DNA of 63,970 bases, filler included, from Sanchytrium tribonematis (lineage: Eukaryota): the NCBI GenBank assembly GCA_018985235.1. It is 5 parts of 5 records of this genome, joined end to end, with 100 filler letters (N's around TTAATTAATTAA, not from the genome) between each part and the next. Parts side by side here need not be neighbours in the genome. Positions count along the whole stretch, not along the records: positions 13,424 to 26,737 come from JADGIG010000192.1; positions 26,838 to 40,124 come from JADGIG010000194.1; positions 40,225 to 53,502 come from JADGIG010000195.1; positions 53,603 to 63,970 come from JADGIG010000299.1; 1 more part is not named here. One strand, 5' to 3'. The notes under the pieces were generated by a model. The model did no database searches. It had not been told where the DNA came from and was given only the letters and a program-made list of their open reading frames with translations. Both the position numbers and the translations under genes were made by a program. Position 1 is the first letter of the stretch. Each line of letters begins with the position of its first letter. Shown one piece after another: positions 20,332 through 58,798 of the stretch.

Positions 20332-22708
20332 TTAATTTTTTAATGATGCAGTGTTAAAATATACATGCACAGATAGAATGCTGGCAATCATCAATATGAG
20401 ACAAACTCCAAGGGCACCAAACGAAAGCCAAAGTCCATTTAGTCCATATCTAAATGAGTCAAAATTACATGGCAATATTGCACAATGACACTGTCATTGC
20501 AGTGGTAGCAGCATTTATGTTTGGACAAGGATCACTTTTCAGTCCATTTTGAAGATTCATTGTCAACTCATTGGTTACATTTCCGATCAAATAACTGAAC
20601 TCTGTGTCGTAATCGTTTTTGGTTTTAAGAATCCATTTGTCATAGGTGTCAAAAATGGATTGCACATAGTGGTCGCTGTCGTACTTTGAAACATTATTTT
20701 TTATGATTGCAAACTGGTTTGCCAAGTCATTGAAAGTAGCATTTAAGCTCTGCCTTTTGGAATTTAATTCTGGATAAATTGATAAAAAGGAATTAAGCGC
20801 TGAAATGCGTTGATTCACGCGGCCTTTAAAATCTGCCAATTCGGCGTTCAGATCTCCAGTAGGGTTACTTAAATCTTCAATATCATTGGTTGTCGTTTGT
20901 AGTGAATTTGATAAAAGCGCCAAAGCTTTTTGAATTTCTGTTGCTGATGTACTATTCAGATCTCCTTTAAGTATTTCAATAGGATCCAAACCCGATATGT
21001 TCATTGCTGATAATTGCATAATAAAATTTTCTGTCGATGATTTGTCAATTGCAGACGATAATTTCAAGTCAAGAAAAGTTTTGTTCAAATAAGTCAAATT
21101 CTGCGCAAAAGCTGTTGCTACCAAATTTGTAATATTAAAAGTATCTTGGCTAAATCCATCAGGAAGCATCTTCTGTATGGTTGTATTTTGTAATATCTCT
21201 GATAATGAGGCATTTCGATCACACAAATCTTTGGCTGCAACTCCAGCCGCACTGTAGCTTGCAATCTCTGGACTAACTAATTTCAGAGATTGGATATTAA
21301 CATAATCGCACGAATCCCCTACCATAAAAGCATATAGATAATAGTAAAATGACGCAACAAAACAAATCATGGTGAGAAATAAGACTAAACAAAGTGAAAT
21401 CATTCCAATCCTAGGAAATTTTAAGGCTATAAACAAGCCAGTCAAAATTAAAAGAAGCCCCATCACACCCAAGTAAATGTAAATGTATATGTTTTGAGGG
21501 CCCAAATTGGTGGTATAGTTTCCACTGGCGCTGTTGAATCCCTCATATTGAGATTTTACAGTTGCTCCGTCAGTGCTATTTCTAAGAGCATCGCTTAAGG
21601 AAGCCTTAATACTATTTATGATATTCCACAATGAAGCGTTTGCCCCATCTAAAGATTCGATTTGTCCTGTCTTCAATTTGGATTTTAAATTATCAATATT
21701 TGATTGCAAATTAGAAGTTGCTGGAAACTGATTTTTAGCTTTTGCAAGCCTTTTGAGGCTCGTATTATCAATATCGTCAGTATATGGGAAATCTTGATGA
21801 TAATATGCATATGTTAGATTATTAGGGTTGTAATTTTTTAATTTATAAACATTGCTAAGCGGAAAATTAAATGTAGGTGCATCAAGACCAGCCAATAATG
21901 ATAAAGATGAATTAAACAACGCGGACCTACTATATAACGTGCCATTTAAACTTATAAAGTTTGCAATTAAACCGTCTGTTAAGGAGCGCGCTACTTTGGT
22001 AAGATCAATTTTCTTGTCAATCAAGGTGCTGTTTTCAGACATTTCAGTATAAAGAGAGCTGATGTCTGCATCGACCGTGGTATTAATCTTATCCATAAGT
22101 CTCAATGGCGATGAAAAGTTTGAAAATGCCGAATCTACATCAAGTTTTCCACTTTGAAGCATAAGGGTTCCACTTGTAACAACTGAACCAGCAGCCAAAT
22201 TTGCATTATTCATCCCGGTTGTAAAGTCATTCAAGCTGCTGATGGTTACAAATAGGCAAAAAACGGTCAAAAGAGTACTTATCGCTAGAAATACTATAGT
22301 CATGATCTTAGTAGGTAGCCTGACATCATCTGGATCAAGTCTATCTGGATCTCTTATGACACAGCAAGAAAGTACCAAAATGCTACCAACAAATCCAATA
22401 AATCCAAAGAAACAACAGATTCCAAGATATATGTCCACTTCAAAATAATCTTTGACGATAGTAGCGAGATTCGGTTGCACGACACCATTATTTTCAGTTG
22501 TATACGCGTCAAATTGAAACCCTCTTCTCGCTCTTGACTTGGATATGATTGTCAACCCGAAATTCTCCCAAAAAAGTCCCATTCCTGGTTCTGCTTGATA
22601 TTTTTTTAGCGATTCTTGTGAAAGAGCTTTGATATTCACCGTGGTCACATCTCTTTTCTCGATTCTTATACCAAATACAAGTAAACTCAAGGCCAATAAA
22701 ATCAGCAT
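20332..22708 (-). CDS. Prominin-like 5-TM glycoprotein (2 exons)
   Basis: Signal peptide, TM pair, long N-glycosylated loop, TM pair, second long loop. Splicing 20450-20468 adds TM5 (CNIAIYGLNGLWLSFGALG...). Confidence 0.75.
20450..20468 (-). other. 19-nt spliceosomal intron
   Basis: GTAATTTTGACTCATTTAG; removal restores the final TM helix. Confidence 0.85.
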
Positions 22709-22759
22709 GTGTGGCTGGTTTTTCTAATGATTTGTTAATGTCATTTTGCTATTAAAACA

Positions 22760-23491: not shown

Positions 23492-23589
23492 TGCTATTTG
23501 TTCCGCTTAATTGCATTTGAGTCAGCTGTTGCTTTTATTCACTCATTTGGATATCGAAATAAATTTTTTTTGAGTTGGTTTAAAACAAG

Positions 23590-25380: not shown

Positions 25381-25408
25381 ATGATTTAAAAGTTCCCCTT
25401 AAGTTGAC

Positions 25409-26837: not shown

Positions 26838-27119
26838 AAGGCAAGCAAATACACTTGTCCTAAATGCAAGGCACGATATTGCTCCTTAGATTGCTTCAAA
26901 AAGCACAAATCGATCAGCCATCTCGAAAATGCCGAGTTAAAAAATGAAATTGATGACGAGTTGTTAAAACAATTAGCAAGCAGAGGGACACGCTTTCAGT
27001 CGATTTGTAAAAATATTATGGAATCAGAGGATCCTCTCATAGCTGTCTACAGAGAAGCGAAAAAGAATGAAGATTTTGCAAATTATGTTAAAGAATTAAC
27101 CACAGCATTTGAAAAATAA
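26838..27119 (+). CDS. HIT zinc-finger protein (Hit1/ZNHIT3-like), 5'-truncated
   Basis: Manual translation: KYTCPKCKARYCSLDCFKKH...EDFANYVKELTTAFEK*. Confidence 0.85.
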   Translation, partial: KASKYTCPKCKARYCSLDCFKKHKSISHLENAELKNEIDDELLKQLASRGTRFQSICKNIMESEDPLIAVYREAKKNEDFANYVKELTTAFEK

Positions 27120-27145
27120 ATATAATTAATAAATTGGTGCTTCGG

Positions 27146-27953
27146 CTATAATTCAATAGCCCATATCTCTATATTGGTACAGATAAATTCGGTATTGTTT
27201 CCTTCTATTATGGATTTTTCACCATGACTTAGACTATGTAAATATAAAATACGGCATATTGTCAAAAGTTTCGCTCTTTGATGTCATACAATCTGAAAAT
27301 GTATCATTAAAACAGAGTCCAAAGCCTCCGCCACTTCCAAATGCTAAAAGATTCGACTGACTTAAAATGTAATAATCATTTTTACCTGTGGCTTTATAAA
27401 TAATTGGATTCTCATTATCGTCTATTGAAAACAAAAAACATTCACCAGTTCCGTAGCAATGCTTTTGAATTTTAAGCGGGCTGGTAAAAAAGGCACCAAA
27501 CTTTTCATCCGAGCTATCCTTACATATCAAAACAAATCCATGCCTCATTTTATCTTCTTCATATTTGTCCATGGATCTATATAATGTTTGCAAAGAAGAA
27601 CCATGCTGATCAAGAGAATACAAAAGTTCCCAGCTGCTACTTATTTCAAAGTACGTTGGCAAATAATTTCGAAGTGATTCCGCGATTAATAGATTTAAAA
27701 CCTTGCGGGTCTTTTCAAGCCTATTTTTAAGGGTGATGGTGGGCAGCCTATCCATCATACTTTCATCGAAAGACATGTGCCTGGATGGAGATTTGGACCT
27801 TGGTATGATTAGATTATTGTCAGCCACAGGTGAAGGTGCTGCAGTTAAAGAACCGCTAATCCAGTTCACGAGGTATGATGTATAGCTGCCAAATGTTGAA
27901 TCTTCTGGTTGCTCTTCATTTTCCACCACGATTGGAAGATCATCGGAGGACAT
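27146..27953 (-). CDS. OXR1: TLDc-domain protein, Oxr1-like (2 exons)
   Basis: WELLYSLDQHGSSLQTLY and YGTGECFLF; the spliced end is FDNMPLS...FICTNIEIW. Confidence 0.9.
27234..27252 (-). other. 19-nt spliceosomal intron
   Basis: GTATTTTATATTTACATAG; removal restores the TLDc C-terminus. Confidence 0.9.
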
Positions 27954-27998
27954 ATTGTTTGAAAATATTAAGGAAGAATTTTAGTTCGAAATGATTTA

Positions 27999-31204
<3,206 letters not shown>

Positions 31205-31374
31205 TTTACAGCAATTTGTTTTCAAGAACTCACTTGGTTTCAGATAAATAAGTGTTTTTAATTTCTTGTTCTCATTCCCGTTAGCCTAATTATGGTATAA
31301 ATATGCCTAGATGAGCCAAATTTTCGGTCTAGAAGATATGTGGATAATCAGGGGTAAAACGACATTGTAATTTC

Positions 31375-32301
31375 ATGACAACCAAACAAATTGGCATTTA
31401 CTCTAATTGTCAGAAACTTGGAGAAGGAACGTACGCTGTTGTCTATAGAGCAATGCACCCAGTTACTAAAGAATATGTAGCTCTGAAGTATATGCGAACA
31501 TCCAAGCCGGAGGAGGGAATGGATTTGAGCACATTACGCGAATTAAAATACCTAAAATACCTAAAGCACGAAAATATTATAAATTTAATTGATGCTTTTC
31601 AAATAGAGAGGAACATAGTTATGGTTCTCGAGATAGCTGCTGGTGATTTAGAAGAATTGATTAAAGACAAATCCATTATTCTCAGCATTGCAGATGCTAA
31701 ATCAATAATGATGATGGCTTTAAGAGGAGTAGCGTATTGTCATATGAATCACATTCTACATAGAGACATTAAGCCAGCTAATTTTTTAATAACAAATGAT
31801 GGAATTATCAAACTTGCTGATTTTGGGCTGGCAAGAGATTTTAATCAAGATTATTCGATGGTGCGACCACTCTCTGCAACAGTGATTACCAGTTGGTATC
31901 GTCCTCCAGAACTGTTTTTGGAAGCTAGGTTTTATGGTGACAAAGCTGATGTCTGGTCAATGGCTTGTATTTTGGGAGAGCTATTAAGAAGAGATCCTTT
32001 ATTCAAAGGAAGTAACGATTTGGAAGTGCTGAGTCAAATTTGGCAATGGCTTGGTACACCGTCTGTTGAGACTTGGAATTTTAAAGAACTTCCAAAACCT
32101 TTAAATCTGAAAGAATCTCCTGGTGTGGATCTGAAAGCATTGTTTCCGTCTAGCCCTAATGACTGTCTTGATCTTATGCGTAGAATGTTTGAATTCAATC
32201 CTAATAATCGTTTATCTGCTACTGATTGCTTAAAGCATTCATTTTTTGTCAATCAACCGCGCCCTACTAAATTTTCGGAGCTCCCCAAAATAAATAGGTA
32301 A
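31375..32301 (+). CDS. KIN28: CDK7/Kin28 TFIIH kinase
   Basis: LGEGTYAVVY, EGMDLSTLRELKYL, VITSWYRPPEL, C-terminal PRPT..ELP. Confidence 0.85.
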   Translation: MTTKQIGIYSNCQKLGEGTYAVVYRAMHPVTKEYVALKYMRTSKPEEGMDLSTLRELKYLKYLKHENIINLIDAFQIERNIVMVLEIAAGDLEELIKDKSIILSIADAKSIMMMALRGVAYCHMNHILHRDIKPANFLITNDGIIKLADFGLARDFNQDYSMVRPLSATVITSWYRPPELFLEARFYGDKADVWSMACILGELLRRDPLFKGSNDLEVLSQIWQWLGTPSVETWNFKELPKPLNLKESPGVDLKALFPSSPNDCLDLMRRMFEFNPNNRLSATDCLKHSFFVNQPRPTKFSELPKINR

Positions 32302-32326
32302 TCTTTTTTTTGAGATTACTCCTTTC

Positions 32327-33508
32327 ATGGCTTTGCAGCATACGATAATCGGGCTGGAAAACGAATTTGCCAAGCATAGTCTTATGATTAGGATACCAGA
32401 AATTATTACAAATGTTATAAACGAACTCTACTTACAACAAAGATCAAATGAAATAGCTTTATTAGGTAAGTTGAAGTATGAGCTAATCAGAAACAGAACT
32501 ATGGATCTATTCGATGATGATATAGAGGGTGTAGAAGAATGGAACAAAATCATTATTAACGCAAAGAATGAAAATGCTTTTTCACTTTCGTATTTTGAAG
32601 CGCCTTGGTTATTTTCTGAGTGTTATATATACAGAAAAATTGAATCAATAGTTCATAAAATTAATTTTGATGTTTTTGAAAAAGAAAAACATAAAGCATT
32701 GGATCAAACGCTTCAAAAATTTCAATTCAAGCAAATATTACCTCTAAAAAAGGACCAACTCAAGCAAATGCTTTTGAATTCTTTATGGGGAAACCAAATG
32801 GATTTATCTTTACACGTTTCCTTTAAAAATGTACAAGTTTATGATGAAAACTTAAAGTATCTTATTTTGGATGATTTTGAAATATTTCATGAGTATATTC
32901 AAAACATTAGCTCGGGTGTTATTCATATCATTCTAGACAATTGCGCTTCTGAATTTCTCAATGATTTACTCTTGGCGGATTTCATGATCGAACACTTGTA
33001 TGCGTCCACCGTACACTTTCACTGTAAGCCATTTCCATGGTTTGTTAGCGATGTAACACTCAAGGATGTGGAATATACATTTGAAGAACTTTTTGCTAAC
33101 AAAAATTTCGTTCACTTGGCCACAAAATGGAAAAGGTGGAGGGAAGAAGAGGTTTTTATTTTTAAATCCAATTATTTTTGGAATATGCCATTTATCTATA
33201 ATGAGATGGAATTTCGAAATCCTGAGCTGTTTGAAGAACTAGCAGCCGCGGATCTGTGTATATTTAAGGGTGACCTAAACTATCGTAAGCTGTGTGGCGA
33301 TAGAATAAGCGAAAAAGCGTTAAATGATTTTAAAAATATAAGATGTTTAGCAATTAGAACTTGCAAATCCGATGCCATAGTAGGCGTTTCAGAAAACAAG
33401 AAAACAGAGTTAGATCAGGATGATCCCAAATGGAGAGTTAATGGCAAATATGGAATTATACAGTACTTTCACAACAAGAACGGCACAAAACGCGAAATAC
33501 CTGAATAA
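32327..33508 (+). CDS. ARMT1/DUF89 damage-control phosphatase
   Basis: APWLFSECYIYR, LWGNQMDLS, ILDN, PWFVSD, FKGDLNYRKL, RTCKSD. Confidence 0.93.
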   Translation: MALQHTIIGLENEFAKHSLMIRIPEIITNVINELYLQQRSNEIALLGKLKYELIRNRTMDLFDDDIEGVEEWNKIIINAKNENAFSLSYFEAPWLFSECYIYRKIESIVHKINFDVFEKEKHKALDQTLQKFQFKQILPLKKDQLKQMLLNSLWGNQMDLSLHVSFKNVQVYDENLKYLILDDFEIFHEYIQNISSGVIHIILDNCASEFLNDLLLADFMIEHLYASTVHFHCKPFPWFVSDVTLKDVEYTFEELFANKNFVHLATKWKRWREEEVFIFKSNYFWNMPFIYNEMEFRNPELFEELAAADLCIFKGDLNYRKLCGDRISEKALNDFKNIRCLAIRTCKSDAIVGVSENKKTELDQDDPKWRVNGKYGIIQYFHNKNGTKREIPE

Positions 33509-33510
33509 AT

Positions 33511-34368
33511 TTATTTTTTGTCAATTGATGCTTGGAATCCGTTTCCTTTCTCGAATCCATTCTTATATTGATAAAAATCATCAATTGCTTGCTCGATTTC
33601 TGCGGAGCTGTTCATGACAAAAGGACCTCTTTGAGCAATAGGCTCGTTGATAGGGACCCCGGCTACCAAAACCAGACGACTTTTTGCGGATGAAATTGAT
33701 ATAGTTCCAATATCAGAGTTCTGTTCTGTTGCGTTCAAAACTAGAGTATGATGAGGTTTGTAAACCTTGTCATCAATTGTGCAGTCTCCTTCAAGAATAT
33801 ATAAAAATCCATCGAAATCATTTCTAACAGGCAAATCTACTTTGCCTTCCAAAACGACGTCCAAAAACACCATAGGAGTGTAGGTGAAAACTACGGCAGA
33901 CACGTCACCAGCTTCACCTGCAATTACTTTGATTTTGGCATCTCCAATAACCGTTTGAGGAATGTTACTTGCCACTTGATCTTGGTATCTTGGTTCTACC
34001 AATTTTTTGTCTTTAGGCAAATTAATCCATAATTGCAATCCATGTGCATCGTCAGTAAGTGGCTGTTCTGAATGCAAAATTCCTCTTCCGGCTGTCATAT
34101 ATTGAAAATCACCTGGATGAATCTTGCCCTTATTTCCAAGAAAATCTTCATGTTGAAATGAACCAGATAGCATATATGTAAGGGTTTCAAATCCACGATG
34201 TGGGTGCGTTGGAAATCCAGCAGGTTTTTTGACATGGAATTCATCTAACATAAGAAATGGATCGCATCTTGAAAAACCAGCGCTTCCAACACTCCGAATG
34301 ACCTTAGCGCCGACACCTTCAGCTTGCCACTTGCCTTCAATAACCTTTGCAATCTTTCTCACTGTCAT
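33511..34368 (-). CDS. Pirin family protein
   Basis: DPFLMLD, GFPTHPHRGFET, MTAGRGILHSE, GPFVMN. Confidence 0.96.
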   Translation of the reverse strand: MTVRKIAKVIEGKWQAEGVGAKVIRSVGSAGFSRCDPFLMLDEFHVKKPAGFPTHPHRGFETLTYMLSGSFQHEDFLGNKGKIHPGDFQYMTAGRGILHSEQPLTDDAHGLQLWINLPKDKKLVEPRYQDQVASNIPQTVIGDAKIKVIAGEAGDVSAVVFTYTPMVFLDVVLEGKVDLPVRNDFDGFLYILEGDCTIDDKVYKPHHTLVLNATEQNSDIGTISISSAKSRLVLVAGVPINEPIAQRGPFVMNSSAEIEQAIDDFYQYKNGFEKGNGFQASIDKK

Positions 34369-34563
34369 TTTGTTTTAAGGGAGACTACTGTAATTTATAT
34401 CTGCTTGATCCTTTAAATAGCACTTGTAGATTGATCCAGAACTAGCTTGATGGATCCATCCAAAGAAAAGAAAGTTAGAATGATCCAGATCCAATCATGA
34501 TGTATGAGTATTTGTCATTTTTTAAGTTTTGCATTGAACGGAGATACATTTGTCAAACCTTGA

Positions 34564-35988
34564 ATGAATGTAATTGTACTTCTAGAATGTCCTAGTTGGC
34601 TCGACATACACAAAATACCCGAAGATTTATTTATCTTGATTCTTGGTGAAAAATCTTACACTCTCGAAAATTTCAAGGAAATTAAGTTAAAATCATTTGA
34701 TGTGCTGGAAATCATTTATAATATAGTCAAGATTATGCAAGACAATTCAAATAAAGGTAAATATAGCATTTACTTAAATATACCAGAGAATTACCAACAA
34801 TTATTAAAGAAGGACGTAGACATCGAATTCTATCAGACTTTGTCGGATTTTTTCTCAGATTATTTAAGGCGGTTACATCCAAGCGACAAAGATTTGTTAG
34901 ATCTAATATCTGATTTAATTATATGCAATTCAATTAATTTGATTGAAAACAATCTTAATAATGTGATGAAATCAACTATTGATAAGAATTTGATTTTGAT
35001 GTGTGTAGATTACAAAAGATCGATCAAAAATTTAAATTCGATCACCTTCTACTTACAAGAGCCACAATTATCCACTCAGTGTATTTTATCTCCAGTTAAG
35101 TGCACATATTTGTCAATTTTAAAAAAATTGTCCAAGCATTTCGTTTCGAAAAAATTGGAATTTGATGTTTTTGAACAATATGAGATTCAAGGCGTTATAA
35201 AAGTAATCAAATTCAAAACTGTTATCAAATTTGACTGCTTGACAGTTCAAACCGCCGACTTTCTTTTGCTAAAACATTCATTGGAATCAGGCTCAAAAAC
35301 AATGTTAGATTTGATTGCCCAATTAATGATTCAAAGATCCCCTCTATTTGATTTTCAAAATGAGTCTGAGAGATGCTACTGGATCAACATTATATCCCCT
35401 TTTGATGATTTTTTTCTAGTACAAGAAAAGGATTTGAAATCAGTATATATTTGTGATCGCACCAAATTATTTTTTGAAGGCAAAAGATTTATTCTCGATG
35501 ACGCTTGCAAATCAGGAATCACAGCGCCAATTGTTCCTAATTTTATTCCGGAAGTTAAACTTTACAATCGAAATTATCGGGGCTTGAGAGATGGCAATTC
35601 TTTTGATTTCACTAATGGTGACAACTATAAATTCTTTGAGTTTTTTCCAAATAACCCGGAAAAGTATCTTAATAATGCGATTTTGTTTTCCCAAAATCTG
35701 AAGACCGACAAGTTGAATGTATCAATAATTCGAAATAATACTGAAATTTTTGTCAAATTTCAATTTTTTTCCAAATATGATGCTTTGCGGTATATAGTAG
35801 CATTAGAAAAACCGGAAATTATTTATGACCACAATATAATTGAATCCTTTGAACCCTGGAGACGAGAAACTGGATCCCAAAATTACCCTAATACTTTTTA
35901 TCGAATGGGAGAAACGCAGCAAAGAGTGTCTTACAAATTAGAAACTATATTCAACTTACATCGGCCAATGGATGCAGAAAATGCTTAG
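34564..35988 (+). CDS. Hypothetical protein
   Basis: 474-aa ORF filling the intergenic space; no motif recognised. Confidence 0.7.
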   Translation: MNVIVLLECPSWLDIHKIPEDLFILILGEKSYTLENFKEIKLKSFDVLEIIYNIVKIMQDNSNKGKYSIYLNIPENYQQLLKKDVDIEFYQTLSDFFSDYLRRLHPSDKDLLDLISDLIICNSINLIENNLNNVMKSTIDKNLILMCVDYKRSIKNLNSITFYLQEPQLSTQCILSPVKCTYLSILKKLSKHFVSKKLEFDVFEQYEIQGVIKVIKFKTVIKFDCLTVQTADFLLLKHSLESGSKTMLDLIAQLMIQRSPLFDFQNESERCYWINIISPFDDFFLVQEKDLKSVYICDRTKLFFEGKRFILDDACKSGITAPIVPNFIPEVKLYNRNYRGLRDGNSFDFTNGDNYKFFEFFPNNPEKYLNNAILFSQNLKTDKLNVSIIRNNTEIFVKFQFFSKYDALRYIVALEKPEIIYDHNIIESFEPWRRETGSQNYPNTFYRMGETQQRVSYKLETIFNLHRPMDAENA

Positions 35989-35993
35989 TAAAT

Positions 35994-37004
35994 TTATTGT
36001 GAATGACTGCCGAAGACACCATTGGTCCAATATAGGTCAGAATATTTTCTGTCATTATCAGGTAATTGACTAATATCCACAGTTTTCGTATGCATAGTCA
36101 AGCTTGGTTCTGGCCAATATCGTCTAGGTATTACTAAGGACTTCGCAGCTGGATAATCTCGGATAACCATATCCAACCCAAAAAGTACGTCTCTTGGCGT
36201 TAACTGATAAACCCGGCCACTTCCTTTTTCTTTTTTCTTCTCTTCCCCTTCAGTCATCCAGCTCATTTGACGAGCTCCAGCAGCCGCCAATGCAGTTTTA
36301 TCAGTTAGTTTCTTTTTGTATTCTTCTGGTAAATTAGCATAGTCTTTCTTGGTCATGGTTCCGTCAAGATTTGGTCTCTTTTCTTTTTTCTTTGAACTTA
36401 TGTCGGGCATTACATTTTTGGCTGTCTCTTTATCAATTCTTGCCAATACCGCTAATTGCTTTTTATAATTAACACCAGGAACAACTTGATAATCCCAAGT
36501 GTCGGGATTATGATAGTTTTTGTTCGGAAGTTTAGGTCGTTGCTTACTATTATCTTGCACATATTCCTCTAGCTTTCTTTGATAAATATATTGTATAGTC
36601 AAGGATTGATTGGAACGATGTTGCGCAGCCTTAACACTTGGATCTAATACACACGCCAAAAACTCATGCGTCGCAGCTTGGATGTATTGCGCTATCTGAG
36701 AAGCCTGTATAAGAGTCAATTGATGTTTCTTGGCGATTTGCTCTACAACTTTTCTGATTAGATTGATATTTCCAAACCATCCAGCTTCTTTTGGATACAC
36801 TTGAGCAAATTCTCGGTCTAAAGAATCATCCACTACTAGTTCATCATCCAATTTTTGCCGTTTTGCGCGAAGATGATATCTTTTTTCGTATAAATTGCTC
36901 TCCTCCTTACTAATATCAACAAATGCAGCGGCGTCCTGTAGTTGCCTAGTATCTACATTTCCTTCAACTTGCTCTAAATCAGAACTATTAGCAGAATCAG
37001 ACAT
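35994..37004 (-). CDS. TAF4: TFIID subunit TAF4-like
   Basis: Histone-fold segment ending AAQHR, TDKTALAAAG..SWM, LTPRDVLF. Confidence 0.75.
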   Translation of the reverse strand: MSDSANSSDLEQVEGNVDTRQLQDAAAFVDISKEESNLYEKRYHLRAKRQKLDDELVVDDSLDREFAQVYPKEAGWFGNINLIRKVVEQIAKKHQLTLIQASQIAQYIQAATHEFLACVLDPSVKAAQHRSNQSLTIQYIYQRKLEEYVQDNSKQRPKLPNKNYHNPDTWDYQVVPGVNYKKQLAVLARIDKETAKNVMPDISSKKKEKRPNLDGTMTKKDYANLPEEYKKKLTDKTALAAAGARQMSWMTEGEEKKKEKGSGRVYQLTPRDVLFGLDMVIRDYPAAKSLVIPRRYWPEPSLTMHTKTVDISQLPDNDRKYSDLYWTNGVFGSHSQ

Positions 37005-37018
37005 TAACCCGTTGTTTG

Positions 37019-37839
37019 ATGTTGATTTTTAACTTATTGTGCTTTTCTAAAACTAGCGAGACTATCCTGCATGCGTTTTTAAAAGAGGGTCTTTTGCTTA
37101 AAAATATCAGTTCTGAATTTGATAAATTGTCTCCCAGTAAGGATTTGCTAAATAAGTCACCTCAATCCGTAGCAAATAATTATCTAAAAATTTTTAATGC
37201 AAGAATGAAGTCATTTCCGGACCACGTCAAAAAGGATTTAGAAAAGCTGGAAAATGGAGAGGCAGTCGAAAGTGATAATAGATACATTTCTAAGGAATTT
37301 GCAAGTTTGTTAGTCAATGTTTTTAAATGTGTTAATGGACAAAAATGTAAATTATAATTGATATAGCGAGCAAGGAAACCAGTTGCCACGCGAAAACATT
37401 TAAAGGATTTGTTCGTGTATCTCAGCTGCTTTGGTTCGTGAGTAAACCACAGCAAAAGTTAAAAGAGTTACTTCATTTAGCTCTTGTTTTCTCAATGAGA
37501 AGATACATATCTGGTTTGATAAAAATAATCAACACAATGAGTGGCGCTAACCAACCGACATCCCAGGAATTAAAAGAAGTAAAGCACGTTCCGTGGGATG
37601 AAGTTTTCCTTTTTAAAAAGAATTTACCATGCTCAGATTGTCAAGATGAAATTATCTATTACTCTGGAAATGCAATGTTTGAGAGCATTGACAATATTTT
37701 GCAAGTGTTATGGAATTACAAGATCAGTCATCCTACCCAATTCAGCTTGATACCAACTTTGGGTGGAGACCAAATAGAGAAATTAGTAGGACGTATGATT
37801 TCTGAGAAACCGACTCGATCCGGCGAGGACGAATTGTAA
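37019..37839 (+). CDS. Hypothetical protein (2 exons)
   Basis: ORFs 37016-37357 and 37438-37839 fuse in frame after removing 37347-37366. Confidence 0.65.
37347..37366 (+). other. 20-nt spliceosomal intron
   Basis: GTAAATTATAATTGATATAG; restores a continuous frame and matches the intron consensus. Confidence 0.75.
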
Positions 37840-37847
37840 GTAAACTT

Positions 37848-40124
37848 TTATTCTAAAGAAGAGGTATAGCATTGTGCGGAGATTGTCAAATTCATGTTTC
37901 CTAGCAATTGGAAAACTGCCGGAATACTTTGTGGTCGCTTTGTGTCGAATTGCTCCATGTGAATTTGATGGTTTCCCAGGGAATATTCCAATTTTTCAAC
38001 AGGCTTCTGATATCTATTCAATGTTAGAAACTTTTTCTTTTCTGTTGCATAGACACCAAGAATTGCTATTATATTGACCTTGACTGCATTTTTTATGTCG
38101 ACTCTTATTTCTCTTTGATAAGGAACAGTGATTTTTTCAATTTTACCAATCTTAAAGGGTATTTTGTCTCCTTTGTAAGTCTTTAAGGTTTTGACATTTT
38201 TTTCGCTCATTGATTCGACTTCTACAATGCATTGAACGAATACTTGTCCTTAATTAGCTAGATTTACCTTTGATATTAGGAAGCATTCTGGGCTGTATAC
38301 CTTCAACTTTTTCAACGAAAATGAAAAATATTCTGTTGGTATTTTTCTTCGGAGGCATTTCGATATTATCGTTTTCATTGATTAAATTTCCTGGCTGCAT
38401 AAAAACCTTTGATGGAAGCGGGCGGTATTTTTCCTGGCTGCTAAAACTTTCTCGTCTCTCGAATGAATAGACAGATGGTGGTCTTGAATAAGATTTGGAG
38501 AGGGTATCTGAGCGTCCCATCTCTGATTCATTTAGCGAGTGCTCTGAGTTTGTTGATATAATCTTTTCTGAGGCAAAGGTCGTTTGGGAAATATTTACAG
38601 CGTGCTTTTCGAAAAAGGTATTATTTAAATTTTGAAATGATTTCATTGAGTCGAAGGTTTTGTTTATATCAATTTCCAAATTTAAGTCTAATTTTGGTAC
38701 ATTTAAAGTCAAATTGAATTCTGGAAGATTTGATCGTTCCATTGTTATACTTTTTAATTTAGACAACACACTATCACTTTCATTAGATTTAATCTGGTCC
38801 TCCAAAATGTGATGTGCCTGCTTTTTATCTCCGAAGATCGACTTGACGTTTTTTCGGCTTTTCTTCTTGAGATTGATATTAGAGTAGTCAAAGAATTCCA
38901 CCTCTTCACTGAGTGCTACCCTTTCCAGACTTAATTTTTTACCGACTTTTTCAAGTTTATTAGCATTCGTGCTTTTCAATTTAGGATTGTCCAATGAAAT
39001 TTCAGCTACTTCCGGAGATTCGGAATCTTTTTTTATTCCAATTTCTAAATCTTTCGACAAATCAGTTTTCGATATTTTTGACAGCAAATTAATTAAATCC
39101 TGTTGCTCAACGTGGCAATTTTCGATTTTATTAGATGTTGTCTCGAAATTATGACCATTGAATAATTCAGGTTTAACTTTAATTGGAGTGTCAGTATCAA
39201 TTTTGGAGGACAATTTGGCATTTTCTACAGTAGGTTGAGATGGATGAGCCTCTTTGACAACAAATTGTACTTTATTGGTTAAAGTATCCCGGACTTGTTT
39301 TTTTTGGACATTTTCTAAGAATATCGAATTATCGATCAACGATTGAGGTTTTGGAACAAAATTCGATTTCCGATTTTCAAATTTAAGTCTCAAAGAGCTA
39401 AATAGATTGATATCACTTTCTTTGACTACTTTCGAGGAAGATTCATTGATACTAGGTGTGAGCAATGATTCTTCACTTTGTGGGATTGCCGTCTTAGTAT
39501 CGACTCTATCTTCTTCCCTTTTCTCTACAGATTCCGTGGCGGCTATAATCTTATGTGAAATGTCATTTTCTACTTCCTGTTGTAAATCTAGAAATCGTCT
39601 AGAAAACCCTCTTGTCTTCAATGCCTTCGGATTCTGTTGTAAAAATGGATTATTTCTAACGCTTCCTTGCTCATGCATTTTATCCTTGCTGGATTTTCGA
39701 ACATAAGGTACATAAATTTTTTCCTCTTCTTGCTTGACGCTATTTAAAGATGCCTTGGAGTCCATCTTGATTGTTTTCGAGAAATCCTTTGTAGGAGATA
39801 CACTTGTATCTCTTGAAGACAAAGATTTCCCTCTTTTGTGCCTTGGTGATTTTTCCATATATTTTTTTAAAACTGAAATAATTTCAACATTTGTGGCCAT
39901 GTCAATAGGTCTTAATCCAATTTGATTCTCCATGGTAGCTGAAGCTCCTTTTTTAATGAGGCTTTCCAGAATATCTTTTTCGCCCAAGTATGCAGCCATG
40001 TGAATTGGAGTGTTCCCAATTCCATTTCGTCCTTGTAGAATTTCAAATGGCATATTTTCTATTAATAAATCAATAATCTCTTTTTTCTTGTCAACCACAT
40101 CCTGAGAATCATCCGAATCAAGCA
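37848..40124 (-). CDS. Ankyrin-repeat protein with disordered middle and C2-like C-terminus, 5'-truncated (2 exons seen)
   Basis: GNTPIHMAA..G and GLRPIDMA ankyrin repeats; intron 38249-38267 joins it to ORF 37848-38210. Confidence 0.8.
38249..38267 (-). other. 19-nt spliceosomal intron
   Basis: GTAAATCTAGCTAATTAAG; splicing gives NIKGQVFVQCIVEVESMSEK in frame. Confidence 0.8.
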
Positions 40125-40224: not shown

Positions 40225-41303
40225 CCGGTAAACTAGAGACAATGAATTGCTTTGTGGTTCAATAGATATCAATTCACAGTCCATTGTACAATAAGTTGTG
40301 CAAGCAGATGAATTGGTAAGATAATATTCCAAATCTATACCACATACTTCTAATTGGTCGTCTCTTAAAAGCTTGTAATTTCCAAATTTGAATTGCCTAC
40401 AATTTTCATTTAGCGATATTCGACTGTCCATTCCAGTCAAAATATTTAAGAATTCTTTAAATTGAAACAAAGATAGCAATGTCTGAAACTCTCTACAGAC
40501 TGGCGGTAAATTTGCACCACGATAATAATTTTTTATATTAAGTGGCCCTTGATGCTCCCATTGTATTGAATCTGATTCTTTTTTCAGAGTTTCAAATTTT
40601 TCAGAGAGCAAAAAATTTGATAAGAGCATGTGGCCCTGATTTGAAAACTCAGAAAGAATTTTTTCTTGAACATCGGGTTGTAAATACATTGGATTGATCC
40701 ATTTTTGTAATAAACTTTCGGTCTGAACATCGTCCTTTTTGCTATAAAACCAACCACTTATTGAATATCGATTTTTATCCGATAATACCAATGCAACTTG
40801 ATGGAAAGAAATTGGAGACACTTCGAAAAATGCAAGTGTATTCCATTCTGGCAGTATCTGCTTATTTACAAAATTTGGCAACCTATTTCCATCGACATCA
40901 AATAAATCAAGAGTCCCGCCATCGGATTCAATCCAGTCTCTGTTAAAGTACAATATAAACGCAATTTTACGTACAGACTCTCCCTCTTCAATCTTGTCGT
41001 CGTGACATAATAAATAGTCATTTTTTGAATAGCAATGTGAGGAGATATCAACTTGATCCAAGAGACTATAACCCAGCTCTCTAAATTGTTCGCGGAATTC
41101 TGAAGTGTACAACTTTTCAACAACGGCTTAAGGTTGTCTTTCTTCATTAGCATTTCTTTTGTTGCTTGTTTAAAATGATATAAATCATTGCTGTTATCAT
41201 TGAAGTTCAAAGACTTCATTTCACGATAGGCGGCCTCCATTAGTGAGTCATCAATTGGATTTTTAACAATTCCATGTTTGAACGGCGTTGTGTAAATCTC
41301 CAT
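40225..41303 (-). CDS. TPA1: OGFOD1/Tpa1 prolyl hydroxylase, 3'-truncated, with a 1-nt frameshift near 41128
   Basis: PFKHG, DLYHFKQ, LYTSEFR, YLLCHDD, GGTLDLF, SFHQV, RYSISGWF. Confidence 0.9.
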
Positions 41304-51073: not shown

Positions 51074-51387
51074 GTACAATTTTTCGTTTTACCCTGGAAA
51101 AACAAAACTATTTTATTCATCCGCAGTTCAATAGATTTGATTGACCGTGTCCTTCCTTCCGCCCAATCTGTAAAAACCTTAAACTAAATAGCAAAACAGC
51201 ATCTTTACCCGCAATCATTTGTTGAGCAGAAATTTGGTTACATGGTTTTAAATTTAAGTAAAGTGGAATTTACCATATCATTAACTTTATTTGATTAATA
51301 ATCATTAAAAATGATTTCGTATAGATGGTTCCTCACTTCATTTGAAAGTGCTGCGTTTAAATTGAAAATAAAGCACAACAATCTAAA

Positions 51388-51537
51388 CTATTTATTTATA
51401 TGCTTTAAGTGTTTCTCTTCCTGATCCCTCATAAATCTTTTACGTGTAATATATGCATCGACTATGGCTACCATTAAATAACAAGTTACTCCGAAAGAAG
51501 CAATAGCAAATCCCTTATGAAAGTTAATTCGTTTCAT
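51388..51537 (-). CDS. 49-aa single-TM protein, Cox14-like
   Basis: Manual translation MKRINFHKGFAIASFGVTCYLMVAIVDAYITRKRFMRDQEEKHLKHINK; CCC directly before the ATG. Confidence 0.5.
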   Translation of the reverse strand: MKRINFHKGFAIASFGVTCYLMVAIVDAYITRKRFMRDQEEKHLKHINK

Positions 51538-51552
51538 GGGATTTCTATCTAT

Positions 51553-53075: not shown

Positions 53076-53414
53076 ATGCCGCGTTCAAAGTGGTTTTATG
53101 AATCTTAATTTTCTGGATTAACAGTAAACGTCGACTCTGTCAAGACTTTTGCCTTTTCTACGAAAATTATTAACGATGCAATGTGATCACCTCAGTTTTC
53201 TAATCCAAAGCTTCTAATTGCATAATCACTTCTGGAAGATATTGCTAAGTATGCCTCTGAAATTAGATAGCTTCCAACTTACTCGTTAGAATCAATTATC
53301 CTAGATTGATAAGTTTGACCTTGGGGGCCACAATATAACCAAACTTCACTCTTAGCGCAATTCGAGATCAGGCGTGAGACTGATCTTATTTTGTTGAGTG
53401 GAGGAAAATCGTAA
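53076..53414 (+). pseudogene. Decayed tandem duplicate of the C-terminal domain of 52145-53029
   Basis: Colinear matches: KWFYE/QWFFD, SVKTF/SIKTF, SGRYC, PWGPQYNQ..QFEIRRETDL versus PWGPKYNQ..QLEIRHETDL; stops and deletions. Confidence 0.85.
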
Positions 53415-53502: not shown

Positions 53503-53602
53503 NNNNNNNNNNNNNNNNNNNNNNNNNNNNNNNNNNNNNNNNNNNNTTAATTAATTAANNNNNNNNNNNNNNNNNNNNNNNNNNNNNNNNNNNNNNNNNN
53601 NN
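53503..53602. other. Artificial contig linker
   Basis: N44-TTAATTAATTAA-N44. Confidence 0.98.
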
Positions 53603-53650
53603 AGCAACACTTCCACATTTTTCATTTGCTTCTGATACAAGCGGAAAATA

Positions 53651-55189: not shown

Positions 55190-55203
55190 TTCTATCGGCC
55201 ATA

Positions 55204-56763
55204 ATGATTGAAAATTCAGTAAAATCTTTTAAAAGTGCTTGCTCTACAAATACTGCAAATGAAATTCTAGACTGGTTGCAGAAAGAAAAGTCATCCACCA
55301 AGAAATCAGCTTTTGGGATTGAGATAAAGGAATTTACCAAAAATCAAGAAATACAAATGTTAAATGACATCATTAATAGGCAAAAAATTAAGATAAAAGA
55401 TCTTCAGACTAAAATTGAAATTAAATCAAAACATATTACCTACCAGCAATTTAAAACATGTAAAGATTCCCTTAAAAATTCTCAGTTAGAAAACGAGAAA
55501 CTTGTGGAGGAAATTGAGCAACTTGGGAAACTGATAAAAAAGAAAGAGAACACCTTTAGAGATAAATTGGAAGAGCAAAAGGAATATTTTGTGCGGGATT
55601 TAAAATCGAAGCAAAAAGTATGGCTTCAAAATGAACAAGTCCAGCGTGACCGCATTTTGCAAGAGCGCACAGAAAAAATAAAAAAGCAGACAATCAAACT
55701 TATGGAACCAGATATAGAAAAATTACTACAACAGCATCGAATTGAGATATTTAAATTAAAAGATGTGAACCGGCAAGAATTGAGTGATTCTTTGAAACAA
55801 ATACAATCCCAACACCTCAAAGAAATAAAGCAGCTACAATTGGAAATATCAAGTATAAAGGATAGAACCTCCGCAGACGAAAAAGCCAGATTTGATTCTA
55901 GATTTTTAAAAGTTTATGAGGAACATGAATTTGAGATGCAAAAATTAAAGCTTAAGCTCGAGAACCACTTTCAGGAACAGCTTAAGAAATCAGAACTCGA
56001 CTTAAACCGGGCAAATCAATCCAAAATTAATGTTCTTCAAGAAGAAATTGTTCTGCTTAAAAAACAAAAAGAATCTGATATGATGGAAGTGAAAAACAAT
56101 TGCCGCAGAGATTTGGAGACAGCTCTCAAAAAATGTCAGTCAGACTTTGAATTTTCTAGCAAAACCACAATAGAAGATATCACGAACAATCACAATGTGC
56201 AAATAAAAGATCTTCAAGATAAATATTTGAACGAAATCGAAAATACCAAAAAGAACGAGATTGAAAAGTTGAATATAAAATTCGAATCACGATTAGAAGA
56301 GGAAGTCGATAAAAGGACTAAGCATCTCAAGCTTATGTTGCAGGATAAAATCGAGAACATCCACCAAATGAAAAACAAATTAGATTCTGCGGAAATGGAT
56401 TTGGCGTTTTTTCAGAAAGAAAATTCAGCTTTTCAAGAATTAAAAGCTAGTTTTATAAATGAAGCCTATTCTCTTAGGCAAGAAAATCAGTCTTTGAAAG
56501 ATAACCTCCACAACAATTCAGAAAAGAAACGTAACAGAGAATTGTCGAGTAAAGTCCAAAATTTAGAAGAAAACTTAAAAGAGAAGTGCGATTATATAAA
56601 GCACACTCAAGATCAAATAACGATTTTACAGAGAAAACACGAATCTGACATAGATGAGTTGGCAAAAGAAAATCAGTCGGTACTTGATTTGTTAAAATCT
56701 GAATTTCAAATGGTAATTGCGAACAAGAATGACCAAATTAACATGCTCAATAAATCAATTTAA
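55204..56763 (+). CDS. CEP131: CEP131/AZI1-like centriolar coiled-coil protein
   Basis: TEKIKKQTIKLMEPDIEKLLQQH matches the CEP131 KKIKExTxKGLEPEIQ.L..H signature; C-terminal IANKNDQI. Confidence 0.65.
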   Translation: MIENSVKSFKSACSTNTANEILDWLQKEKSSTKKSAFGIEIKEFTKNQEIQMLNDIINRQKIKIKDLQTKIEIKSKHITYQQFKTCKDSLKNSQLENEKLVEEIEQLGKLIKKKENTFRDKLEEQKEYFVRDLKSKQKVWLQNEQVQRDRILQERTEKIKKQTIKLMEPDIEKLLQQHRIEIFKLKDVNRQELSDSLKQIQSQHLKEIKQLQLEISSIKDRTSADEKARFDSRFLKVYEEHEFEMQKLKLKLENHFQEQLKKSELDLNRANQSKINVLQEEIVLLKKQKESDMMEVKNNCRRDLETALKKCQSDFEFSSKTTIEDITNNHNVQIKDLQDKYLNEIENTKKNEIEKLNIKFESRLEEEVDKRTKHLKLMLQDKIENIHQMKNKLDSAEMDLAFFQKENSAFQELKASFINEAYSLRQENQSLKDNLHNNSEKKRNRELSSKVQNLEENLKEKCDYIKHTQDQITILQRKHESDIDELAKENQSVLDLLKSEFQMVIANKNDQINMLNKSI

Positions 56764-58798
56764 TTCTTTGCAATTGGGGAAATTCTTGGTTGAAGTTTCA
56801 ATCTCTACGATTTCTAATGTAGGATCAATGGTTACCTAATTTAGTACAAGTTACCAATAATTTTGCGGCTAGAAGGCATCTATATGCGACTATTTCATCT
56901 ACATCGGTCAAACAATGGGTCAATAATTGAAATATATTTCGACAAAAAACAGCTTTTCCACATTGATGCTTGACCATAAGAACAGCTATATTCAGTAACA
57001 GAGCAGCAAAAACCTGTATGGATTTGCTCTTGGAAGGTAATAATATTGCGACTTTTAGAATAACGGAATTAAGATTATTTTTTATAAAGTCTTCGTTTGC
57101 ATTAAAAATATTGCAGTAAGCTCTTAGTATCATCAACAGATTCCTATCGTCAGATAGACCGCATTGAGATAAAAATTCATCTTGCAATAATAATTCACAT
57201 AAATTTGTAGAATTTTCAAGACAGTTAAGTCTGAAAATATCAAGAATGGGAAATTTGTGACCATCAGGCCAAGCTAAGAGTATTTTGGTCATGAGATGCA
57301 AATTTTCCTGTGAAGGAATAGAAATTTTCTCTGGATCTGCTTTATCCTTATTAGATACATTATATTCTTCAATTTTTGCTTTAATTTTATCCATATTGCC
57401 GGACTTGAATAAATAGTAATTTTGAATAAATGAAGCATATTCAAACTTGGAGTGAGTTTGATTAGTTGTTTGGATATTCGGGGTATCTTTGTATTGTGGT
57501 GTGTACTTATGACCCCCGGTAAAAGGGTCTGATCCTTGAGGTTGCTGCAAATTCGCTGCAGAGCCAGTATTTTTGACAATGAAATTGGCAACATCGTCCA
57601 AATGAACTTGATCAAGCTGATTTTTGTTTAAAAATGATAATGCAGCGGAGAATGGGTTTTCCAAAGTATTGTAGGGCAATTTCATCATTTTTCCATCCAA
57701 GTCAACGTCAAACACGTAATCATATTCTTTTCCTTCAAAAATTTGTTTTCTACTGTTTCCTACAGCATTGACGACCTCTCCAATTTTAACCCATTTACCA
57801 CCTGACCAGGAATATGCCATTATTTTCGATTCTTCTTTTATCATTTGCACATGACCTTCTTTTGGACCAGGCTTATCCAAAATGTCCTTCGATGGGATTT
57901 TGGACATATCTATATCTCCAATAGTCTCCTTATTTAAACTAAATTGTTGAAGATTGGATTCATATCTGGCGATCATTTCATTATTAGCTTTCTGCTCTTC
58001 TTTTGTGGTAAATTCATAAATTCTTCCGCTACTACTTGCAATAGCAATGTTCGAGCCATGTGATGCTACATTCCAAAGACTTACTTCAGGAATAGGGATA
58101 TTTTGTATAATATTTCCATCCAACCAGATTTTGCAGCACTGATCTTCGCCAACACTAACAACATACTCTGTATCTAGTGTAATAGTAGTGAGGCTATATA
58201 TAAAGGAAGTGTGACCAAACCATTCTGACTGCAATGATCCTGTAGTGTCCCATATTTTGATACTGGCATCGTTACTACAAGAAACGATTTGGCCTTTATA
58301 CAAAGCTAGACCTCTAACTGGTTGTTTATGTGCGTGTATGGTGTTTTTGATATTTAATTGCTTGTCGAGATGGTAAATATTTCCATCAGCACAGCCAACA
58401 AATATGTTAGAATCTATGACAAGTAAAGCCCAAACAGCATGTGGTAAATTTACATGTTTGGAAGACTTTAGATCATTCAATAAAGTGATTCGAACTGTAT
58501 TATCCCATCCACCAGTGATAATATAGCCATCCAGGCTGGTAATAGAAGTGATATTTCCGTTGTGTACTGGATATTCAGTTTTCAATTTGTTTTGATACTT
58601 ATAAAGTATCCCATTTTGGCATCCAACGAGTACAATATCGTCTCTTACGTAAATGCTATTTAAAAAATTGTCCGCATTCAAAATTTCACCTACAAAGAAA
58701 GTGTGGTCTCGAGAGGTTGAAAGTATCAAATCGCCAAGATAGGTTACAGCTTTACAGTCTTTCTCGTGTCTATCTATTATATCTTTTAACAAAAACAT
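56755..58798 (-). CDS. DOA1: Doa1/PLAA (WD40-PFU-PUL), 2 exons
   Basis: WD40 repeats, FEGKEYDYVFDVD..KLPYN (PFU), DPFTGG, WP..KFPILD (PUL). Confidence 0.95.
56836..56854 (-). other. 19-nt spliceosomal intron
   Basis: GTAACTTGTACTAAATTAG matches the consensus (CTAA branch); splicing gives a 26-aa terminal exon. Confidence 0.75.

What the first reader, a model, noticed from the sequence alone, without database searches (positions are those of the whole stretch)
20450..56854. Uniform 19-20-nt spliceosomal introns with an invariant branch A at -6
Seen in sequence: six introns on three of the four gene-dense contigs. They are GTAATTTTGACTCATTTAG (20450-68), GTATTTTATATTTACATAG (27234-52), GTACTTTGTTTTTATTTAG (28216-34), GTAAATTATAATTGATATAG (37347-66), GTAAATCTAGCTAATTAAG (38249-67) and GTAACTTGTACTAAATTAG (56836-54). 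Five are 19 nt and one is 20 nt. All start GTA and all have YTNA with the A exactly 6 nt from the 3' end. Splicing restores conserved motifs in Cdc48, TLDc and the prominin-like protein. Established: introns this small are known from chlorarachniophyte nucleomorphs, heterotrich ciliates (Stentor, also with A at -6) and some microsporidia. Inference: this fungus-like lineage has independently evolved a fixed-geometry minimal splicing system, with about 13 nt from the 5' splice site to the branch point and no polypyrimidine tract, which probably needs a modified spliceosome.
Basis: partly seen in the sequence, partly recalled or inferred. Interest (0 to 1): 0.85.

Follow-up and report, generated by a model that had tools for sequence, protein, structure and literature searches.

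The report
Ultra-short introns in sanchytrid fungi
Six genes of a sanchytrid, an alga-parasitising fungus, are interrupted by 19-20-base inserts with intron ends, at least one sitting exactly where other fungi have a 48-63-base intron, so they are likely the shortest spliceosomal introns yet seen in true fungi, and public protein sets made without splicing are cut short at them; no RNA was available to show the splicing itself.

Summary
All six 19-20-nt GTA...YTNA..AG elements are at the stated places. Cdc48 places the organism with Amoeboradix gromovi (Sanchytriomycota; 100/100). Two are firmly introns. The Cdc48 19-mer is the best of 51 splice choices and lies at the same position and phase as 37 distinct 48-63-nt fungal introns. 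The 20-mer is the best of 140 choices against an intronless ortholog. Unspliced ORFs of independent relatives stop at the same junctions in Cdc48, PLAA and TLDc. The prominin-like and ankyrin cases rest on frame and gene packing only. No RNA run was listed, so splicing, the branch point and genome-wide uniformity are inferred from six cases. An A at -6 is not new (Stentor, Yarrowia), and A. gromovi keeps Prp8, SF3B1, U2AF, BBP and Dbr1, so a modified spliceosome is unsupported. Five of six introns lie in the last fifth of their genes. Seven literature searches found no report of sanchytrid introns. The scan held no notes on this genome; it had noted 26-29-nt Rozella introns on other DNA. Verdict: real, a new independent case of a known kind.

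The parts
20450..20468 (-). 19-nt intron, phase 2, in a prominin-like membrane protein gene (CDS 22708 to 20332); 95% along the CDS
   Evidence: Removal adds 38 residues with a hydrophobic segment and shrinks the gap to the next gene from 157 to 24 nt. Prominin-like is a lead only (atlas 0.91). No homolog spans the junction; codon score of exon 2 is weak (-1.6). Moderate support.
27234..27252 (-). 19-nt intron, phase 2, in a TLDc-domain gene (CDS 27953 to 27146); 89% along
   Evidence: Pfam TLD match stops at model position 151 of 170 in the unspliced ORF. Relative P0246 ends at the same place with the same number of read-through codons. Gap to neighbour 114 to 26 nt. Contig-confirmed. Exon 2 alone had no Pfam hit.
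28216..28234 (-). 19-nt intron, phase 2, in Cdc48/p97 (CDS 30453 to 27999); 91% along
   Evidence: Best of 51 GT/GC-AG choices, 221 bits against 100 unspliced. Same position and phase as 37 distinct 48-63-nt fungal introns. Six relatives' ORFs end here. Contig-confirmed. Strongest case.
37347..37366 (+). 20-nt intron, phase 1, in an unnamed 266-aa protein gene with a hydrophobic N-terminus and C-terminal EDEL (CDS 37019 to 37839); 41% along
   Evidence: Intronless ortholog P0249 aligns without a gap across the junction; best of 140 splice choices, score 698 against 667 for the next. Contig-confirmed.
38249..38267 (-). 19-nt intron, phase 1, in an ankyrin-repeat gene (CDS from beyond 40124 to 37848); more than 82% along
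   Evidence: Removal joins a 132-codon open, coding-like frame (score +10.9; the other five frames are negative) and shrinks the gap from 414 to 8 nt. Contig-confirmed. No homolog spans the junction. Moderate support.
56836..56854 (-). 19-nt intron, phase 0, in PLAA/Doa1 (CDS 58798 to 56755); 96% along
   Evidence: The A. gromovi ortholog P0131 and ENA ortholog P0130 end 3 and 2 residues after this junction while other homologs run on about 40 residues. Profile test inconclusive: 41.5 bits spliced, 39.3 unspliced, 42.3 for another choice. 5' site supported, 3' site least certain.
27999..30453 (-). Cdc48/p97 gene, used for lineage placement
   Evidence: Pfam; 92% identical to EukProt A. gromovi P0002; tree
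37019..37839 (+). Two-exon gene for an unnamed, apparently sanchytrid-restricted protein
   Evidence: One full-length relative among 1.84 billion representatives

Best explanation
These six elements are likely ordinary U2-type (GT-AG) spliceosomal introns that shrank to 19-20 nt in the sanchytrid lineage, and a largely conventional spliceosome would remove them using GTA as the 5' site, the YTNA adenosine at -6 as the predicted branch point and the next AG as the 3' site. Shown: the sequences, the restored frames, position homology of the Cdc48 intron with 48-63-nt fungal introns, a gap-free match to an intronless ortholog for the 20-mer, and shared interruptions in independent relatives. Inferred: U1 or U6 pairs with GTA, U2 pairs with YTNAY to make a 14-15-nt lariat, and the three bases between branch A and AG leave no room for a polypyrimidine tract, so the 3' site would be set by distance from the branch, as in Yarrowia and Stentor. 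Inferred history: the lineage lost most ancestral introns (5 in about 41 kb of complete CDS, about 0.12 per kb) and the survivors were trimmed by deletion to a floor near 19 nt. They persist mainly near gene 3' ends, likely because cDNA-mediated loss needs homology on both sides and these genes have almost no 3' flank.
For: Coordinates and consensus. Cdc48: best of 51 splice choices, 221 against 100 bits; 33 of 33 full-length homologs with the motif have exactly the spliced spacing; 53 matches in 52 JGI loci, 37 distinct introns of 48-63 nt at the same position and phase, from a pattern that allowed 12-72 nt. The 20-mer: intronless ortholog, best of 140. Relatives' unspliced ORFs end at the same junctions: Cdc48 in A. 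gromovi and five ENA/JGI proteins, PLAA in A. gromovi and one ENA cluster, TLDc in one ENA protein. The TLDc relative's read-through tail has five codons then a stop, as in the window, with Leu-Ile last; this fits a 19-nt intron with YTNA at -9 to -6 (inference from protein only). No indels in contigs over 4 of 6. Splicing closes four oversized intergenic gaps to 8-45 nt. Spliceosome genes and Dbr1 are annotated in A. gromovi.
Against: No transcript or lariat evidence. Only six cases from one 64-kb window; no whole genome was held. No intron DNA from any relative was obtained. The PLAA profile test does not single out the 19-nt choice. The prominin-like and ankyrin junctions have no spanning homolog. 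Read-through tails of two relatives do not fit 19 nt with YTNA at -9 to -6: JGI P0122 Cdc48 would fit 18 nt or a longer intron, A. gromovi PLAA 17 nt or a longer one, so length may vary across the clade (inference). An invariant A somewhere among 13 interior positions has a chance of about 0.013: suggestive only. In-frame 18- or 21-nt introns without stops would be missed in genes without close homologs.
Confidence: 0.85

Rival explanations
1. They are real introns but are spliced inefficiently, as in microsporidia; most transcripts retain them, and they survive near 3' ends because the unspliced product is nearly full length.
For: Short E. cuniculi introns are spliced at under 20% (PMC6349667, passages) and V. 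culicis introns at a median 25.3% (PMC4435813, passages). Five of six introns lie in the last fifth of the CDS. Retention gives a stop inside or just after each intron.
Against: The unspliced Cdc48 would lack the last 71 residues, which match the family strongly, and the unnamed gene would lose 60% of its length. Nucleomorph 18-21-nt introns are described under near-typical splicing levels (PMC6009652, passages). This is a variant of the best explanation, not an alternative to intron status.
Confidence: 0.3
2. The introns are real, but 19-20 nt is only the mode of a wider distribution (about 17-30 nt) and the -6 A is not invariant genome-wide.
For: n = 6. Relatives' read-through tails hint at other lengths. 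A 26-nt GTAAGT...CTAAT...CAG element lies at 53257-53282.
Against: The 26-mer is within chance (0.40 expected) and restores no recognisable gene. No convincing 15-30-nt intron was found at gene 5' ends. Homologs of Cdc48, PLAA, TLDc and the unnamed gene show no further breaks.
Confidence: 0.35
3. Programmed ribosomal frameshifting reads through the elements without splicing.
For: 19 and 20 nt equal a +1 or -1 shift; a separate 1-nt frame break without such an intron exists near 41130.
Against: A frameshift would leave about six extra residues; homologs align without them. All six have GT-AG ends, no shared slippery site, and the Cdc48 site is an intron in other fungi.
Confidence: 0.02
4. Assembly indel errors or decayed genes that mimic introns.
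For: The data are from one assembly; run X1 may be its source.
Against: Contigs agree letter for letter over four elements; independent relatives break at the same codons; Cdc48 is conserved on both sides of the break.
Confidence: 0.02
5. Non-spliceosomal removal by IRE1 and tRNA ligase, as for the short HAC1/XBP1 introns (recalled).
For: Similar size range (recalled, not tested).
Against: The junctions are GT-AG with no shared CNG-CNG cut motif (flanks); the host genes are unrelated; the Cdc48 site is spliceosomal in other fungi.
Confidence: 0.01

Closest known systems
Heterotrich ciliate tiny introns (Stentor coeruleus; PMC9505925, passages)
   Same: GTA start, AG end, T/A-rich interior, putative branch A at -6 (10th of 15, 11th of 16), near-uniform length, low density
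   Different: 15-16 nt with a 10-nt lariat against 19-20 nt and a predicted 14-15-nt lariat; no strong branch consensus in Stentor, YTNA in 6 of 6 here; unrelated lineage
Chlorarachniophyte nucleomorph introns (Bigelowiella natans; PMC6009652, passages)
   Same: 18-21 nt, GT-AG
   Different: About 3 per gene and no discernible branch A there; here about 0.2 per gene with a fixed A and YTNA
Mikrocytid introns (Mikrocytos mackini; PMC10245619, abstract and passages)
   Same: Parasite, uniform tiny length, conserved sequence, a few hundred per genome
   Different: 16-17 nt; rhizarian; spliceosome strongly reduced (17-19 proteins), while A. gromovi keeps at least Prp8, Brr2, SF3B1, U2AF, BBP, Cwc25, Isy1, Dbr1
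Microsporidian short introns (Encephalitozoon cuniculi; PMC6349667, PMC2483917, passages)
   Same: Holomycotan parasite, compact genome, few short introns, TAAY-type branch motif
   Different: About 25-35 nt, extremely 5'-biased, poorly spliced; here 19-20 nt and 3'-biased; separate origin on the published tree
Yarrowia lipolytica constrained branch-point-to-AG introns (PMC2483917, passages)
   Same: A true fungus with no polypyrimidine tract and a BP-AG distance of 2 nt, which puts the branch A at -6
   Different: Long introns (median 204 nt) with a strong ACTAAC consensus
Myxozoan and dicyemid ultra-short introns (PMC13644364, passages)
   Same: Parasites with a median near 22 nt, retained U2 and U2AF, missing polypyrimidine tract
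   Different: Animals; the A-rich site moves with intron length instead of staying at -6

Membership tests
U2-type spliceosomal intron | GT 5' end and AG 3' end | tested here: met
   6 of 6
U2-type spliceosomal intron | Branch-site-like motif upstream of the AG | tested here: met
   YTNA in 6 of 6, YTNAY in 5 of 6, A at -6; its use as branch point is inferred
U2-type spliceosomal intron | Exact removal restores the conserved protein | tested here: met
   Met for Cdc48 and the 20-mer; indirect for TLDc; inconclusive for PLAA; frame and packing only for the prominin-like and ankyrin genes
U2-type spliceosomal intron | Position shared with introns of other species | tested here: met
   Cdc48: 37 distinct 48-63-nt introns at the same position and phase; only this intron was tested on DNA
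U2-type spliceosomal intron | Removed from mRNA through a lariat | not testable with these tools
   No RNA holder listed
U2-type spliceosomal intron | Major spliceosome present in the organism | tested here: inconclusive
   Core proteins annotated in the relative A. gromovi; this organism's genome not held; no Rfam match in the window
Ultra-short uniform intron systems (Stentor, nucleomorph, mikrocytid type) | Intron length 21 nt or less | tested here: met
   Five of 19 nt, one of 20 nt
Ultra-short uniform intron systems (Stentor, nucleomorph, mikrocytid type) | Narrow length range across the whole genome | not testable with these tools
   One window only
U12-type intron | Extended RTATCCTT 5' site (recalled) | tested here: not met
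   0 of 6
IRE1-spliced HAC1/XBP1-type intron | CNG-CNG cut motif at both junctions (recalled) | tested here: not met
   Junction flanks; hairpins were not folded
Sanchytriomycota (host lineage) | Groups with Amoeboradix gromovi on a long branch | tested here: met
   Cdc48 tree of 33 rows, 5-row clade at 100/100; PLAA best named hit is also A. gromovi; one gene tree only, species not determined

The most novel reading that the evidence does not exclude
Sanchytriomycota as a whole carry the shortest spliceosomal introns of any fungus, microsporidia included: an independent collapse of ancestral 50-60-nt introns to a 19-20-nt unit with the branch A fixed at -6, spliced by a largely intact fungal spliceosome, with survivors concentrated at gene 3' ends, the reverse of the 5' bias of other intron-poor genomes. 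The published sanchytrid proteomes are systematically truncated because of it.
Probability: 0.55. Interest if true: 0.75.

Novelty: new member of a known kind. Interest (0 to 1): 0.63.

Why it matters
It adds a true fungus to the short list of lineages that splice introns near the lower size limit, so the fungal spliceosome, whose yeast form is the best studied structurally, can be compared protein by protein with one that must form a 14-nt lariat. The Cdc48 intron gives a direct before-and-after (48-63 nt to 19 nt at one site). The same -6 geometry in Stentor, Yarrowia and here points to a minimum branch-to-AG distance. Practically, the sanchytrid proteomes were made with TransDecoder on genomic contigs (PMC8371127), and their Cdc48, PLAA and TLDc entries are cut at these introns, so gene-content and domain-loss claims for this phylum need re-annotation with a minimum intron length of 15 or less.

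Tried and rejected
No RNA holder listed for window 26900-36800; this says nothing on expression. No whole genome held. The Cdc48 junction pattern found no short intron in JGI metagenomes (0 of 53 matches under 48 nt) and nothing in viral or prokaryote contigs; a protein scan of viral contigs gave three intronless Cdc48 genes at 73% identity, not sanchytrid. Rfam found nothing in the window at E up to 1 and only chance-level hits in two intergenic gaps. Pfam gave no hit for exon 2 of the TLDc, prominin-like, PLAA or ankyrin genes. The fold of ankyrin exon 2 was unusable (pLDDT 43), so no fold search was run; the atlas C2-domain hit was 0.83, a lead only. The Cdc48 half used a wrong frame and was redone. 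In one search three start coordinates were wrong (Cdc48, mS14, a small membrane gene); the Cdc48 intron position is 0.91 either way. Consensus-like elements rejected as introns: 2656-74 and 3758-77 (removal breaks or restores nothing); 37609-27 and 49075-93 (antisense to genes); 37137-56 (inside a stretch that aligns to the ortholog unspliced); 15981-99 and 59722-40 (inside open frames); 51939-63 (the unspliced GNAT frame is open and matches Pfam). Lee et al. 2010 (PMC3809491) was not held. Two supplements of PMC8371127 were too large and one was unreadable, and the eggNOG table was cut; any remark on introns there was not seen. Absence of SLU7 and 'U1 small nuclear' text in that cut table is not evidence of loss.
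Full report
Observation. The window is five pieces of about 10-13 kb joined by N linkers, with 29-41% GC. Pieces 2-5 are densely packed eukaryotic genes in the standard code, nearly all single open frames, including a 3,108-codon midasin. All six elements are present as written, five on the minus strand and 37347-66 on the plus strand. Aligned at the 3' end they show Y at -9, T at -8 and A at -6 in 6 of 6, Y at -5 in 5 of 6; only three bases separate the A from the AG. The 19-nt pattern occurs 8 times against 2.22 expected (0 of 100 shuffles); the pattern came from these introns and 3 of the 8 matches are not introns by context. The 20-nt pattern is at chance level. Contigs of the one listed run, a DNA run that may be the source, match four of the six with no gaps.

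Organism. The best Cdc48 hit is EukProt Amoeboradix gromovi at 92%. In a 33-row maximum-likelihood tree (33 of the 128 Cdc48 proteins then held, chosen for taxon spread) the window's protein, A. gromovi and three environmental proteins form a long-branched clade at 100/100. PLAA gives the same best named relative. This is a sanchytrid; the species was not determined. PMC8371127 (passages) describes sanchytrids as algal parasites with 10.5-11.2-Mb genomes, sister to Blastocladiomycota, and says proteins were predicted with TransDecoder on assembled contigs. The word 'intron' occurs there once, in a reference title.

Cdc48, 28216-34. Against a profile from 113 full-length non-sanchytrid homologs, the stated intron is the best of 51 GT/GC-AG choices (221 bits; next 198.5; unspliced 100.1). 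All 33 homologs that carry the searchable motif have the spliced spacing (87 of the 127 proteins examined lacked that exact motif and were not scored, 7 end at the junction). A pattern spanning the junction and allowing 12-72 nt found 53 matches in 52 JGI loci: 37 distinct GT-AG introns of 48-63 nt at the same position and phase, 26 of them with a YTRAY adenosine 11-20 nt from the end. Of nine named references, a basidiomycete was the closest for 36 of the 52 loci (crude). So the 19-mer is an old fungal intron reduced to about a third of its length. All seven sanchytrid-clade Cdc48 proteins in the databases, including the window's own entry P0123, end at this junction or within five residues of it.

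The 20-mer, 37347-66. A search of 1.84 billion representatives with exon 2 gave 3 hits: the window's own partial entry, a weak 5,983-aa hit and P0249. P0249 is one open frame that matches both exons; the stated intron is the best of 140 choices and gives a gap-free junction. P0249 and a Cdc48 that stops at the intron site are each on record on a 33,780-nt contig, probably the same one, so that relative has the Cdc48 intron but lacks this one: a gain here or a loss there.

TLDc, PLAA, prominin-like, ankyrin. The unspliced TLDc frame ends at Pfam model position 151 of 170. Its only relative found (2 hits among 170 candidates, one being the window's own) ends after the same five read-through codons, the last two Leu and Ile, which fits a 19-nt intron with YTNA at -9 to -6 (inference). 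For PLAA, A. gromovi and an ENA cluster end 3 and 2 residues after the 5' site while other homologs continue about 40 residues; a profile from 92 homologs did not separate the 46 splice choices (41.5 against 39.3 unspliced and 42.3 for a rival). For the prominin-like and ankyrin genes no homolog spans the junction; support is an open second frame and closure of intergenic gaps from 157 to 24 and 414 to 8 nt. The frames were chosen for being open, so that score is partly circular.

Results against uniformity. The read-through tails of P0122 (Cdc48) and P0131 (PLAA) do not fit a 19-nt intron with YTNA at -9 to -6; they would fit 18 and 17 nt or longer introns (inference). No relative's intron DNA was obtained. 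In-frame introns without stops could be missed.

Position. Five of six introns lie in the last fifth of the coding sequence (0.95, 0.89, 0.91, over 0.82, 0.96; one at 0.41; post hoc binomial P = 0.0016). A relaxed search for 15-30-nt introns at the 5' ends of the 29 genes given a start coordinate (three of them wrong) found two candidate elements, neither convincing. Microsporidian and cryptophyte nucleomorph introns are 5'-biased. Five introns in about 41 kb of complete CDS is about 0.12 per kb, against 1.30 for Allomyces (PMC8476143, passages).

Mechanism. Shown: ends, motif, frame restoration, position homology. Inferred: U2-type splicing with the -6 A as branch, a 14-15-nt lariat, and 3' site choice by distance with no polypyrimidine tract. 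The published A. gromovi annotation lists Prp8, Brr2, SF3B1, a U2AF subunit, BBP, Cwc25, Isy1, cactin and Dbr1 (supplement searches; table cut), so a lariat pathway exists in the clade and nothing yet shows a modified spliceosome. The 3' bias is most simply explained by cDNA-mediated loss sparing introns with little downstream homology; tolerance of poor splicing is the rival. Both are untested.

Comparison. It works like Stentor's 15-16-nt introns (A at -6; PMC9505925, passages), matches the 18-21-nt size of chlorarachniophyte nucleomorph introns, which lack a visible branch A (PMC6009652, passages), and is longer than mikrocytid 16-17-nt introns (PMC10245619, abstract and passages). The -6 geometry equals the 2-nt BP-AG distance of Yarrowia lipolytica (PMC2483917, passages; taking the last A of TACTAAC as branch is established knowledge). 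E. cuniculi's short introns are about a third of 76 nt, median 32 in another table. A 2026 paper lists ciliates, Microsporidia and dicyemids as the known sub-30-nt cases and adds myxozoans (PMC13644364, passages). Other papers seen in passages only: PMC4435813, PMC5381614, PMC13685798, PMC10459994.

Novelty. Searches for sanchytrid + intron, Amoeboradix + intron, Sanchytri + splic, and four on tiny, ultra-short, ultrasmall or shortest introns gave no report of sanchytrid introns or of introns this short in non-microsporidian fungi; most of these hits were seen as listings only, the library lacks most subscription journals, and three supplements of the genome paper could not be read. The scan's own notes hold nothing on this genome or on sanchytrids; one unchecked note gives 26-29-nt introns for Rozella. 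Verdict: a real, apparently unreported, independent origin of ultra-short spliceosomal introns; a new member of a known kind; interest 0.63.

Noticed in passing
window 40225-41303 (-), break near 41130: A 2OG-Fe(II) oxygenase gene (Ofd1/Tpa1-like by Pfam) changes frame by one base after about 57 codons, with both sides coding-like and no 19-20-nt GT-AG at the break. Assembly error, heterozygous indel or a real frameshift; not checked against reads.
   Followed up: partly
window 53257-53282 (-): A 26-nt element with textbook GTAAGT, CTAAT and CAG signals in a 430-nt gap with no called gene; within chance, no Rfam match of note.
   Followed up: partly
window 37004 (-) and 37019 (+): The predicted start codons of the divergent TAF4-like gene and the unnamed gene are only 14 nt apart; the ortholog P0249 starts at the same Met, so promoters and 5' UTRs would lie inside the neighbouring genes.
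   Followed up: partly
window 37019-37839 (+): Unnamed 266-aa protein with a hydrophobic N-terminus, paired cysteines and C-terminal EDEL (DDEL in the relative): likely an ER-lumen protein so far seen only in this clade.
   Followed up: partly
window 1-13323: Gene-poor piece with an integrase-core fragment at 7618-8346 (Pfam rve) and many broken frames, including a ubiquitin-like-looking stretch around 3164-3697 with an in-frame stop (by eye). Probably decayed mobile DNA.
   Followed up: no
window 34294-40047: Contigs of run X1 differ from the window at many sites, densest in the ankyrin gene, and show small indels at 34496, 34518 and 39008: likely two haplotypes or strains.
   Followed up: no
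P0049: A Rhizopus arrhizus Cdc48 model also ends at the residue equivalent to the intron site, hinting that the intron exists in Mucoromycota and was mis-annotated there.
   Followed up: no
L053, L054, L055: Three giant-virus MAG contigs carry intronless Cdc48 genes 73% identical to the A. gromovi protein.
   Followed up: no
window 51074-51394 and 59410-59647: Two further intergenic gaps of about 240-320 nt, large for this genome, may hold uncalled small genes or RNAs; Rfam gave only chance hits for the first.
   Followed up: partly
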